Assembly: GCA_964016885.1 (NCBI GenBank)
Contig: OZ024744.1
Location: 33,790,001 to 33,854,000 of the forward strand
From: Eledone cirrhosa
Taxonomy: Eukaryota
Direction: 5' to 3'
Length of the DNA stretch: 64,000 bases
A program made the translations under genes and the position numbers. The notes under the pieces were generated by a model. That model was not told the origin of the DNA. It saw nothing but the letters and a program-made list of their open reading frames with translations, and made no database searches. Shown here piece by piece: positions 4,101 to 45,547 of this stretch. Each line of letters starts with the position of its first letter. The stretch's first letter is position 1.

Positions 4101-4671
4101 ATTGTTATACTTTGGGAGGGTCATGTTGCCAATAAGAAACACACGCACCAGTTGCTTTCACTTCAATTTATTATAATAAATTTATAAATTTAGGAATTTA
4201 TAAATTTCCGGTTGGTTGGTTCCACAACCAGATGGTTGTTTATATATTGTCAAAGTTCTTTCGTCACACATTATGTGACCTCTTCAGTGACTGGGGATTC
4301 TTTTCTTTGTTTTTCTGCCTCTCCTTTGTTCTGTCCTACGCCATCTTGTTTTTGTGTGTGTGACAAGATGGCGTAGGACAGAACAAAGGAGAGGCAGAAA
4401 AACAAAGAAAAGAATCCCCAGTCACTGAAGAGGTCACATAATGTGTGACGAAAGAACTTTGACAATATATAAACAATCATTTGGTTGTGGAACCAACCAA
4501 CCAACCGGAAATTTATAAATTCCTAAATTTATAAATTGTTTATAATAAATTGAAGTGAAAGCAACTGGTGCGTGTGTTTCTTATTGGCAACATGACAATC
4601 CCAAAGTATAACAATATCGGTTTCAACACACGTTTTCAGATAAAGAATCTTGCTAAAAAAATTCAGAAACG
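4101..4671. mobile_element. Fold-back (palindromic) copy of PLE A pLTR in (TA)n
   Basis: Arms 4101-4350 and 4363-4615 are near-exact reverse complements and match 45015-45263. A ~55-bp extension follows, and there is (TA)n on both sides. Confidence 0.9.
4421..4463 (+). ncRNA. Minimal HHR motif (mirror copy at 4249-4291, -)
   Basis: GTCA-CTGAAGA-g-GTCACA taatg TGTGAC-GAAA-GAAC-TT-TGAC. Confidence 0.7.
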
Positions 4672-5042
4672 ATATATATATATATATATATATATATATA
4701 TATATATATATATATATCATAAATCATGTCTATAGAATTATTAGATAAATAAAATTCATATCATTTCCTCTGCCAATCACCATAATTAACCATATAAAAA
4801 ATCAATTAGACCAAGCTATAAGGATAAAAGCTCCTATGAAGAAATCTCCGACAAACAAACGAAAGTGGCCTCTTCGCGGTGGCCTCAATAGAATATTTAT
4901 CCAACATTTCGACAGCATGTAGAAACTGACCAAATATACAATCAACCATACACAATTTGGTGTAAATTGAAACTTAGAAGAAATGTGTACATACCGTAAT
5001 ATATATATATATATATATATATATATATATATAGTGTATATA

Positions 5043-5228
5043 TAATTGTTTCTACGTTGGGCACAAAGCCAGCAATTACCCAGTGTATTACTGGTACTTT
5101 ATTTTATCGACCCCGTAAGCATGAAAGGCAAAGTTAACCTCGGCGGGATTTGAACTCAGAATGGCAAGGGCCGTAACTCCATGCGTCAAAGCATGGCGTC
5201 CGACCCTCTACCAATACTGCCAATCCAC
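5043..5228 (-). mobile_element. SINE family 1 (other copies/fragments: 5453-5600 +, 6095-6212 -, 27537-27705 +, 30275-30330 +, 51466-51585 -)
   Basis: Shared core GAAAGGCAAAGTTAACCTCGGCGGGATTTGAACTCAGA, with ATT-type tail. Confidence 0.85.
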
Positions 5229-6257
5229 AATGCTCTTATATATATATAGTGTATATATAATGTTTTGACATCACTAGTCTTAGACAACAAAGGTGGCGTG
5301 GTGAGGGGAGTCTGACATACATGGGCAACTGCTGGTCTTCCACAAAGCTACCTTGCCTGGACTTGTGCTATGAAGGGAAACTTTCCAGGTGCAAATCACA
5401 GGGTTATTCGTAACCGAAGGGGTCTTTACCCCCTTTACCCATATAGTATAGAGGCGGTGAATTGGCAGAGACGTTACAACGTCGGATGCTATGTAGTGTT
5501 TGTTTCCACTCTCTGCTCTCTCAGTTCAAATCCCGCTTTCTCAACTTTATCCATTTATGGTCGATAAAAAATGTACCAGTCAAGTGCTGGTGTCGATTCT
5601 TCCTTCATATCTCTTTCTCACTTCCTTTATCCTTCTCTGGAAGAAATCTCCTGAACTCAGGCTAGGAGAGGAGGTGATGGGCTCCGCCCAGGTTTTAAAA
5701 CTGCACTAGAAATGCCGTATGTCAATATGGGGCCCCTACCACTCTATCGGGAGTTACGGGACCATACATATAAACTGTATAAATTGTATATATATATATA
5801 GTTTATATATAAAGTATATATTGTATATATATATAGCGTATATATTGTGTATATATGGTGTATATATAGTTTATATATAAAGTATATATAGTGTATATAT
5901 AGTGCATCTATTGTGTATATATGGTATATATATATATATATATATATATATATATATATATATATATACTTTATATATATACTTTATATATAAAGTATAT
6001 ACAGTGTATATATAGTGTATATATGGTGTATATATGAGTTGTGACGATAGTTGCCAAGCTATACCAGCATTTATCTTTCATTGGACATCATACATAAGGA
6101 TGGAAGGCAAAGTTAACCTCGGCGGGATTTGAACTCAGAATGGCAAGGGCCGTAACTCTATGCGTCAATGCATGGCATCCGGTCCTCTACCCATACTGCC
6201 AACCCACCGCCCTGAGAATGTAAATATAATGTGATGATACATGTGTCAAACTGTATT

Positions 6258-44873: not shown

Positions 44874-45071
44874 GGACAAAATGAAAACACACACACATAG
44901 AACAAACAACCAACCAGTAACATGTAAATAAACAAATAAATAAATGAACATAAACACACACAGACACCCGGATGTGGCGCATGCGCAGACTGAGCACACA
45001 ACACACACACAGAAACAAAATGGCGTAGGACAGAACAAAGGAGAGGCAGAGAAACAATGAAAGGAATCCCC

Positions 45072-45116
45072 AGTCACTGAAGAGGTCACAGAGTGTGTGA
45101 CGAAAGAACTATGACT
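45072..45116 (+). ncRNA. Minimal HHR motif in 3' pLTR of PLE A
   Basis: AGTCA-CTGAAGA-g-GTCACA gagtg TGTGAC-GAAA-GAAC-TA-TGACT. Confidence 0.78.
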
Positions 45117-45547
45117 ATATATAAACAACTATCTGGTTGTGGAACCAACCAACCAACCAGAAATTTATAAATTTATTATAAATTTATTATAATAAATTGA
45201 AGTGAAAGCAACTGGTGCGTGTGTTTCTTATTGGCAACATGACCCTCCCAAAGTATAACAATATATATGTATATATATATATATATATATATATATATAT
45301 ATATATATATATATATATATATATATATATATATATATATATATATATAATAGCTGCGGGTTTAACCCTGCGATGGACTGGCGTCCTCTCCAGGAGGGAG
45401 TCTTGTACTCTCAGTCGCTACACGCCATGAAACCGGGATAAGCACCGGCCAAATGAACCTTCTGGCTTAAGACAGACTTTAGACTTTATATATATATATA
45501 TATGTGTGTGTGTGCGCACGTGTGTATGTGTTTAATATAGAAATGAA

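What the first reader, a model, noticed from the sequence alone, without database searches (positions are those of the whole stretch)
4101..45263. An intact PLE and its own palindromic derivative in the same window
Seen: the 515-bp palindrome at 4101-4615 is two inverted copies of the last ~250 bp of PLE A (45015-45263), HHR included. Both arms end at the same ...AAAGTATAACAAT terminus as the full element, and one arm has a 55-bp extension. This ties the palindromes directly to a PLE with an uninterrupted RT/GIY-YIG ORF, a candidate mobilising enzyme.
Basis: partly seen in the sequence, partly recalled or inferred. Interest (0 to 1): 0.72.

Follow-up and report, generated by a model that had tools for sequence, protein, structure and literature searches.

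The report
Truncated Penelope retroelement and fold-back insertions
The palindrome is a real but ordinary short, folded-back insertion of a Penelope-type jumping gene; the long copy beside it is related, but it has lost its front end, so it is neither intact nor the direct parent.

Summary
The palindrome is real. Its arms (4101-4349, 4363-4615) are 95.9% and 93.5% identical to the 3' end of PLE A (45015-45262), carry the same minimal hammerhead and share its terminus; the right arm has a 55-bp tail. This head-to-head layout with a one-sided tail is the published Penelope-like element (PLE) insertion structure. Two claims fail. (1) PLE A is not intact. RT and GIY-YIG are uninterrupted, but the upstream pLTR and an N-terminal block found in 12 of 12 long relatives are missing. 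The tail seems to hold the missing ORF start. (2) PLE A is a sibling, not the parent: both arms share 12 substitutions and a 5-bp insertion against it. PLE A's 5' end is an inverted end-plus-tail of a different family, X. Of 14 local inverted repeats in the window, 12 touch (TA)n at exactly one end. Verdict: a new Neptune-like PLE family, probably from Octopus, with known architecture. Two leads remain: the cross-family junction, and these hairpins as a source of octopus dsRNA.

The parts
4101..4349 (-). Left, tail-less arm: inverted 3' pLTR fragment of family A, abutting (TA)n
   Evidence: 95.9% to 45015-45262; 0 bp from (TA)5+
4350..4362 (-). 13-bp asymmetric centre; matches the (CA)-rich 3' UTR just upstream of 45015, so the left arm is about 13 nt longer than the right
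   Evidence: blastn 45002-45263 versus 4362-4100
4363..4616 (+). Right arm: direct 3' pLTR fragment of family A
   Evidence: 93.5% to PLE A, 97.6% to the left arm
4617..4671 (+). 55-bp PLE 'tail'; with the ATG at 4592 it reads as an open 27-codon frame resembling the N-terminus of full-length relatives
   Evidence: rank 1 of 1975 window peptides in 15 of 21 profiles, never below rank 4
4421..4463 (+). Minimal type I hammerhead motif (CUGAAGA, extra G, stem II, GAAA, 2-bp stem III, CUU site)
   Evidence: activity not tested
4249..4291 (-). Mirror-image hammerhead motif in the left arm
41771..41903 (-). Inverted terminus plus about 76-bp tail of a different family (X), forming the 5' end of the PLE A insertion; abuts (TA)n
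   Evidence: 86-92% to three X copies, no match to PLE A's 3' end
41903..41912 (+). 10-nt stub of the X second arm (hairpin with 41887-41896), ending in AAAC where PLE A's (AAAAAC)n begins
41913..42431 (+). Asn/Thr-rich low-complexity linker of PLE A, 5'-truncated; first ATG at 42177
   Evidence: 57 N and 32 T in the first 209 codons; similar linker in O. vulgaris relatives P0001 and P0222
42432..44873 (+). Conserved PLE core: DK motif (42768), RT (D motif about 43221, YVDD 43743), CX4CX2C linker (44490), GIY-YIG EN with CCHH
45015..45262 (+). 3' pLTR of PLE A with hammerhead (core 45077) and ORF-start ATG (45239); no tail; runs into (AT)n
34366..34565 (.). Family X fold-back copy X1 (arm 34366-34424, arm plus tail to about 34565)
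54269..54474 (.). Family X fold-back copy X2
59165..59346 (.). Family X fold-back copy X3, the closest to PLE A's 5' cap
54571..54597 (-). 3' terminus of a sister family: same first codons (MTLPKY) with diverged upstream DNA, abutting (TA)n
   Evidence: 89% over 27-28 bp, E about 1e-4 to 6e-4; translation

Best explanation
The palindrome is one short, head-to-head PLE insertion made by the RT/GIY-YIG protein of a Neptune-like family (A), and is most likely dead on arrival. Steps: (1) The EN cuts a (TA)n tract (inferred from target bias and literature). (2) RT copies RNA from the pLTR/ORF-start region, which has two end points 55 nt apart: the pLTR end and the tail end (both ends are shown in sequence; that they are RT start sites is inferred from the Anolis Poseidon in vitro work). 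(3) Synthesis stops after about 250 nt, and the insert is closed as two inverted 3' fragments joined at their truncated ends, one with and one without the tail (shown). (4) The tail-less end joins the target through a short AT microhomology (shown). PLE A is a sibling insertion of the same family. It is 5'-truncated inside an Asn-rich linker, keeps RT and EN uninterrupted, and is capped by an inverted end of family X. The autonomous driver is a full-length family-A copy elsewhere in the genome. Whether the second arm arises by cDNA fold-back or by a second priming on the other target strand is not resolved; I put about 55:45 on fold-back or single-template copying.
For: Continuous 93.5-95.9% identity and shared terminus. 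Of 16 local inverted pairs, 2 are nested in a larger one; of the remaining 14, 12 touch (TA)5+ at exactly one end, none at both and 2 at neither; 0.7% of random non-tract positions lie that close on a given side. Family X repeats the same two end points in 3 palindromes, and the tail end again in PLE A's cap. Tail-less junctions share 3 or more nt with (AT)n in 6 of 9 families tested, against 9.9% expected (p=6e-5). The tail peptide ranks first of 1975 window peptides against N-terminal profiles of 6 close full-length relatives (E 0.025 at 60 aa, 0.001 at 40 aa), as PMC3846280 reports for Pen2a_Av (pLTR plus tail = first 22 aa; passage). Truncation: the N-terminal profile matches PLE A only from model position 239; O. 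vulgaris P0222 matches only from its residue 176; 12 of 12 relatives with 130 aa or more upstream of the LPFNKR motif carry a P[KNR][FY] block there and PLE A has none. Same-template arms: X arms differ at 0 substitutions within each of 3 copies but at 3-7 between copies.
Against: The tail/N-terminus match is short and modest: E rises to 0.14-2.9 when P0070 or P0022 is dropped, and is 3 with a 230-aa profile. I built the profiles after noticing the resemblance, and a direct database search with the peptide found nothing. No full-length family-A copy was seen. All 6 substitutions between the arms fall on the right arm, slightly odd for two identical arms decaying neutrally. Arm ends were found on a TA-masked sequence, which favours ends at tracts, though not one-sidedness. 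Only some palindromes have independent PLE marks (A, X, 58748-59122); the rest are assigned by architecture alone. No target-site duplication can be read inside (TA)n.
Confidence: 0.85

Rival explanations
1. One reading: PLE A is an intact autonomous element and the direct parent and mobiliser of the palindrome.
For: No stop in 1002 codons; catalytic motifs present; deviation at conserved columns (9 of 172, 5.2%) within the range of relatives, 0-11.3%; an in-frame ATG at 42177 gives 898 aa.
Against: No upstream pLTR; N-terminal block absent; 5' end is family X; 12 shared substitutions and a 5-bp insertion separate both arms from PLE A.
Confidence: 0.05
2. Twin priming: a dimeric RT/EN nicks both strands of (TA)n and starts one cDNA at each of the two RT start sites; the cDNAs join head-to-head. 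PLE A plus its X cap is then one insertion made from two different families' RNAs.
For: One tail per insertion in 12 of 14 structures. PLE A follows the same rule across families: X end tailed, A end tail-less. The Anolis Poseidon protein cleaves and extends both strands, has two RT start sites bounding the tail, and is a predicted dimer (PMC11167929, parts 1-2). All 6 arm substitutions lie on one arm.
Against: X arms are identical within copies but differ between copies, which needs both cDNAs to come from one source. The 10-nt stub at 41903-41912 shows that the X arm did fold back. One case only. PMC3846280 saw no cross-mobilisation between the PLE types it compared (passage; section).
Confidence: 0.25
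3. The X/PLE A junction is secondary: an X palindrome and a longer PLE A sat side by side in one (TA)n cluster, and a microhomology-mediated (AAAC) deletion fused them.
For: Insertions pile up in the same TA tracts here (e.g. 41506-41757 lies next to 41771; 58748-59346). The stub ends in AAAC and PLE A begins with (AAAAAC)n. Palindromes are deletion-prone (own knowledge). Microhomology deletions disable Penelope copies (PMC3846280 Discussion).
Against: Needs the same neighbourhood and orientation by chance plus a deletion; no intermediate is visible.
Confidence: 0.5
4. The palindromes are self-propagating non-autonomous 'fold-back' families (MITE- or retrozyme-like) copied from palindromic masters.
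For: All 4 X copies are cut within about 25 nt of the same spot, next to the GAAAC of a hammerhead-like 3' half. Non-autonomous pLTR derivatives (retrozymes) are known (bioRxiv 10.64898/2026.07.22.740005; abstract and first part).
Against: The four X centres all differ. In a full hairpin the hammerhead core is base-paired away. Ends are asymmetric, unlike TIR elements. Only one family-A palindrome lies in the window.
Confidence: 0.15
5. Assembly fold-back artefact, or (TA)n-triggered local inverted duplication of arbitrary flanking DNA.
For: (TA)n is self-complementary and borders every case; some arms are 99-100% identical.
Against: The family-A arms differ at 6 sites and an indel. The end points recur exactly in independent copies (A terminus in PLE A and, for a sister family, at 54571; X termini in 3-4 copies).
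Confidence: 0.04

Closest known systems
Neptune/Nematis-clade EN+ Penelope-like elements (described in Craig et al. 2021, PMC8557442; passages and supplement table of contents/first part seen)
   Same: Single RT ORF with C-terminal GIY-YIG, CX2-5CxxC linker, CCHH, DK motif, hammerhead in the pLTR, (TA)n targeting, 5' truncation, inverted 5'-truncated copy, tail at one end only.
   Different: Tail is 55 bp rather than 30-40 bp; relatives are 1020-1220 aa; long Asn-rich linker upstream of the RT core; the inverted 5' piece of PLE A belongs to another family.
Adineta vaga Pen1-6 elements (Arkhipova et al. 2013, PMC3846280; passages and Discussion read)
   Same: Head-to-head inverted pLTRs with a tail on one; pLTR plus tail encodes the ORF start; N-rich inserts that keep the ORF open; self-priming proposed.
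   Different: Those are Penelope/Poseidon clade without the Cys linker, low copy number, with readable TSDs; their N-rich inserts lie inside RT or between RT and EN.
Schistosoma Cercyon minimal hammerheads (Cervera and de la Pena 2014, PMC4209133; parts 1-2 of 4 read)
   Same: Minimal type I HHR with short helix I, longer helix II and an unpaired base before stem II; pairs of HHRs 100-700 bp apart on opposite strands attributed to truncated PLEs. Here the two cores lie 138 bp apart.
   Different: Loop 3 here (G-AA-C) is not palindromic; activity untested.
Poseidon PAc of Anolis (Frangieh et al. 2024, PMC11167929; parts 1-2 of 4 read)
   Same: Tail lies within the ORF start, between two end points; AT-rich target.
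   Different: Different clade. PAc RT starts without homology to the target, whereas tail-less junctions here show AT microhomology. Here the ATG lies about 130 nt downstream of the HHR site rather than inside the HHR.
Non-LTR retrozymes (bioRxiv 10.64898/2026.07.22.740005; abstract, introduction and part of methods read)
   Same: Short non-coding pLTR-derived repeats carrying a type I HHR.
   Different: Retrozymes are head-to-tail tandem units; this is a head-to-head inversion.

Membership tests
EN+ PLE (C-terminal EN) | RT with catalytic motifs in one ORF with a C-terminal GIY-YIG | tested here: met
   GIY-YIG 23.3 bits (cut-off 22.6); RVT_1 E=0.0026, below cut-off; motifs aligned with relatives. 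Whole-ORF Pfam scan gave nothing.
EN+ PLE (C-terminal EN) | Hammerhead motif in the pLTR | tested here: met
   Motif scan 7 hits versus 0.025 in shuffles; no Rfam hit; cleavage not tested
EN+ PLE (C-terminal EN) | Inverted 5'-truncated copy and one-sided tail | tested here: met
EN+ PLE (C-terminal EN) | RT phylogenetically sister to telomerase RT | tested here: inconclusive
   No tree with named references; PDB profile search gave only weak bacterial RT hits
Neptune/Nematis clade | CX2-5CxxC linker between RT and EN, plus CCHH in EN | tested here: met
   CX4CX2C at 44490; C667, C672, C675, C683 and C694 invariant, H721, H737 and H742 nearly invariant in alignment A3
Neptune/Nematis clade | Placement in the Neptune rather than the Nematis clade by RT tree | not tested
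   No named reference sequences were available to the tools
Intact autonomous PLE copy | Upstream pLTR (promoter) of the same family | tested here: not met
   No pLTR match upstream of the ORF; 5' end is family X
Intact autonomous PLE copy | Complete N-terminal region | tested here: not met
Intact autonomous PLE copy | Uninterrupted RT and EN with catalytic residues | tested here: met
Naiad/Chlamys | N-terminal EN, no canonical HHR | tested here: not met
   EN is C-terminal and an HHR motif is present
Hydra clade | DKT motif, CxCX5C linker, no CCHH | tested here: not met
   PLE A has DKS, CX4CX2C and CCHH; PLE B, in contrast, shows the Hydra marks
Non-LTR retrozyme | Head-to-tail tandem units each with an HHR | tested here: not met
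   Arms are inverted
MITE / Foldback DNA transposon | Terminal inverted repeats that define both ends symmetrically | tested here: not met
   One end carries a tail; none of 14 structures touches (TA)n at both ends
MITE / Foldback DNA transposon | Target-site duplication | not testable with these tools
   Flanks are (TA)n

The most novel reading that the evidence does not exclude
Every PLE insertion is built from two cDNAs primed on opposite strands of a cut (TA)n tract, one at each RT start site. This explains the long-puzzling 'one tail per insertion', and PLE A with its family-X cap is a single event that used RNAs of two different families. In octopus these one-sided fold-backs (about 4.7% of this window lies in their arms) are also a main, unrecognised source of the exceptional long-dsRNA content and A-to-I hyper-editing that Porath et al. 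2017 measured but did not assign to a repeat class.
Probability: 0.2. Interest if true: 0.7.

Novelty: new member of a known kind. Interest (0 to 1): 0.33.

Why it matters
As stated, the finding restates known PLE anatomy in a new family, and its selling point (an intact enzyme next to its product) does not hold. What remains useful: (1) The tail supplies the missing ORF start, so tails can guide annotation of full-length copies. (2) The window holds about a dozen insertions with the same one-sided geometry and an AT microhomology at the tail-less end, a countable signature for the unresolved PLE integration step. (3) A cross-family junction could separate fold-back from twin priming if orthologous sites are examined. 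(4) Such near-perfect hairpins are candidate ADAR or siRNA substrates; PMC5625713 reports an exceptionally high long-dsRNA fraction in octopus, which it left out of its repeat-annotated analyses (passages).

Tried and rejected
Rfam: no hit at gathering threshold; E-value scans gave no hammerhead, only hairpin/miRNA chance matches. Pfam on whole ORFs: nothing for PLE A or B at E<=0.01 beyond one spurious hit; sub-regions gave RVT_1 and GIY-YIG. Direct search with the tail peptide: 23 candidates, none at E<=10. Blastp/phmmer of the peptide against 69 relatives: best E 0.24, not N-terminal. The broad 27-protein N-terminal profile did not pick up the tail, and the 230-aa close profile only at E=3. 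Pairwise shuffle p-values for six relatives were 0.024-0.66. Family X as PLE A's own N-terminal coding part: rejected, no profile support (E=10) and no match to its 3' end. ADAR (A-to-G) origin of arm differences: no such bias. Tails of other palindromes as ORF starts: not established. The 55-bp tail has no second match in the window. PDB sequence search: uninformative. ESM Atlas: RT/GIY-YIG clusters only. Prokaryotic genome scan: one 2.7-kb MAG contig with a 33% relative, probably host DNA; no pLTR evident on reading its 3' end. In one search, two nested pairs (61905-62519, 62197-62322) were dropped before counting. The microhomology test covered 11 structures, with X counted once, and not 59389-59803, 33966-34200 or 54063-54220. 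Literature: 9 of 10 searches used. None retrieved a paper describing octopus PLE palindromes or PLE twin priming (listings and abstracts only, except the papers named). Subscription papers such as Arkhipova 2006 and the Repbase/Zenodo libraries were not visible, so absence from print is not shown. PMC13282606 (parts 1-2 of 3) counts 31 recently active Penelope-like families in O. vulgaris and, in those parts, does not describe their structure.

Full report
Observation. The window is microsatellite-rich animal DNA. The closest named relatives of the PLE A protein are Octopus vulgaris predictions (69% over the core; several more), so the host is probably an octopus (inference). A masked self-comparison shows the palindrome at 4100-4616 (93.7%) and its two matches to 45002-45264. 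The three-way alignment is continuous: left arm 95.9% and right arm 93.5% to PLE A, arms 97.6% to each other. All three share the terminus ...AAAGTATAACAAT. The left arm and PLE A then run into (AT)n; the right arm continues 55 bp first. A minimal type I hammerhead motif sits in all three copies. The scan gives 7 hits in the window against 0.025 per shuffle. Rfam does not detect the motif and its folding is not exceptional, as expected for so small a motif; it matches the features listed for PLE minimal hammerheads in PMC4209133 except a palindromic loop 3.

Sibling, not parent. Both arms share 12 substitutions and a 5-bp insertion against PLE A in the MAFFT alignment; 6 further substitutions are on the right arm only and one 4-bp deletion on the left only. 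The palindrome therefore comes from another source copy of the family.

PLE A is not intact. The frame 41865-44873 is open. It carries the DK motif, RT catalytic motifs, a CX4CX2C linker and a GIY-YIG domain with CCHH, the marks of Neptune/Nematis PLEs (PMC8557442 passages). But 36 relatives have 230 aa or more upstream of the core start where PLE A has 135, largely low-complexity. An N-terminal profile of 27 relatives matches PLE A only from position 239. The O. vulgaris relative P0222 matches only from its residue 176, and 12 of 12 relatives with enough upstream sequence have a P[KNR][FY] block that PLE A lacks. There is no upstream pLTR. Instead 41771-41903 is the inverted end plus tail of another family, X, which also forms three palindromes in the window (34366, 54349, 59165). 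A 10-nt fold-back stub follows, and then PLE A's AAC-rich linker. The first 16 codons of the long frame are thus X DNA.

The tail is probably the missing start. From the ATG at 4592 the right arm and tail read as 27 open codons. Profiles of the N-termini of the six closest full-length relatives rank this peptide first among 1975 six-frame peptides of the window, aligned from model position 1 at that ATG (E=0.025). It is rank 1 in 15 of 21 leave-one-out and length variants and never below rank 4. The signal is modest, depends mainly on P0070 and P0022, was tested after I noticed it, and a direct database search found nothing. Two things agree with it: a sister-family end at 54571 keeps the same first codons, and PMC3846280 reports that pLTR plus tail encode the first 22 residues of Pen2a_Av.

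A general pattern. A systematic listing gives 16 local inverted pairs, two nested in a larger one. Of the other 14, 12 touch (TA)5+ at exactly one end, none at both and 2 at neither; the chance of such contact is about 0.7% per end. Masking favours ends at tracts but not the asymmetry. The other end carries a 37-163 bp extension. At tail-less ends the element shares 3 or more bases with the (AT)n in 6 of 9 families, against 9.9% expected. X arms are identical within a copy but differ at 3-7 sites between copies. Only A, X and 58748-59122 have independent PLE marks; the rest are assigned by architecture. Arms of the 11 structures first listed cover 4.7% of the window.

Mechanism. Shown: inverted 3' fragments joined at truncated ends, two fixed end points, TA targets, AT microhomology. 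Inferred from PMC11167929: the EN nicks AT-rich DNA and RT starts at two internal sites that bound the tail. The second arm comes either from fold-back of the nascent strand (self-priming is proposed in PMC3846280) or from a second priming on the other target strand (my inference). Identical X arms and the 10-nt stub favour a single template. The one-tail rule, and its holding across families in PLE A, favour twin priming. The X/PLE A junction can equally be a later AAAC-mediated deletion between neighbouring insertions. In the full hairpin the hammerhead core is base-paired, so the palindrome is unlikely to self-cleave or propagate as a retrozyme.

Comparison with what is known. Craig et al. 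describe frequent 5' truncation, an adjacent inverted 5'-truncated copy and a 30-40 bp tail often at one end. Cervera and de la Pena note paired minimal hammerheads 100-700 bp apart on opposite strands from truncated PLEs. Arkhipova et al. describe head-to-head pLTRs and N-rich inserts. The palindrome works like, and is, such an insertion. PLE A passes the tests for a C-terminal-EN PLE with a Cys linker, fails those for an intact copy, and was not placed on a tree. My searches found no paper on octopus PLE palindromes or PLE twin priming, but key subscription papers and repeat libraries were not visible.

Verdict. Interest 0.33. The bolder reading (two-template twin priming, and PLE fold-backs as a main source of the high octopus dsRNA reported in PMC5625713) is not excluded: probability about 0.2, interest 0.7 if true.

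Noticed in passing
window 38275-39844 (-): Second PLE (B), split over three frames, with DKT motif, CxCX5C linker and no CCHH: the Hydra-clade marks. Whether the hammerhead-like piece at 37790-37900 is its pLTR is unresolved.
   Followed up: partly
window 39858-40529: One-sided inverted structure (39986-40097 / 40418-40529) with a 35-bp direct repeat (39854-39888 / 40374-40408) at PLE B's 5' side; no match to B's 3' end, so possibly a second foreign cap.
   Followed up: partly
window 60968-61040 (+), 59023-59090 (+), 35640-35710 (-): Further minimal hammerhead motifs; the one at 60979 has an 11-bp stem I and folds at z=-3.2. Degenerate look-alikes lie at about 3640 (+) and 37870 (-).
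   Followed up: partly
window 34430-34470, 54423-54460, 59221-59260, 41860-41903: Family X carries a hammerhead-like 3' half (GAAAC, stem with palindromic GAGCTC loop, GUC), and all four copies are cut within about 25 nt upstream of it, suggesting a strong RT stop or a common short template.
   Followed up: partly
window 35140-35363, 41506-41757, 55156-55272, 58748-59122, 59389-59890, 62991-63213: Single-copy one-sided (TA)n palindromes of unrelated sequence, 72-100% arm identity, probably other PLE families of different ages.
   Followed up: partly
window 61171-62697: 1.5-kb fold-back whose left arm is interrupted by three tandem copies of a ~200-bp dispersed repeat (also at 5042, 6095, 51466, 56345), bounded by a 21-bp repeat; nested inner palindromes.
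   Followed up: no
window 46080-50760: About 50 copies of a 93-bp satellite with long open frames repeating a 31-aa unit that resembles an RTE-type LINE C-terminal stretch (resemblance recalled, not tested).
   Followed up: no
window 9207-14470, 15263-20880, 20868-25670: Three tandem, decayed LINE copies with AP endonuclease, RT and zf-RVT, 70-80% identical; L1/Tx1-like by recall.
   Followed up: no
window 4719-4983 and 40578-40842: A 265-bp repeat (75%) sitting directly beyond the (TA)n after both the family-A tail and the PLE B cap; identity unknown.
   Followed up: no
window 35882-36870: Recent 292-bp local duplication (98.6%) containing a hammerhead-like motif hit at 36542.
   Followed up: no
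L001 14-2292: A 33% PLE relative on a 2.7-kb contig of a bacterial MAG, probably animal host contamination.
   Followed up: partly
protein P0066: An O. vulgaris gene model named dynein regulatory complex subunit 6-like begins with about 150 aa of this PLE family (77%), probably a mis-annotation or exonised fragment.
   Followed up: no
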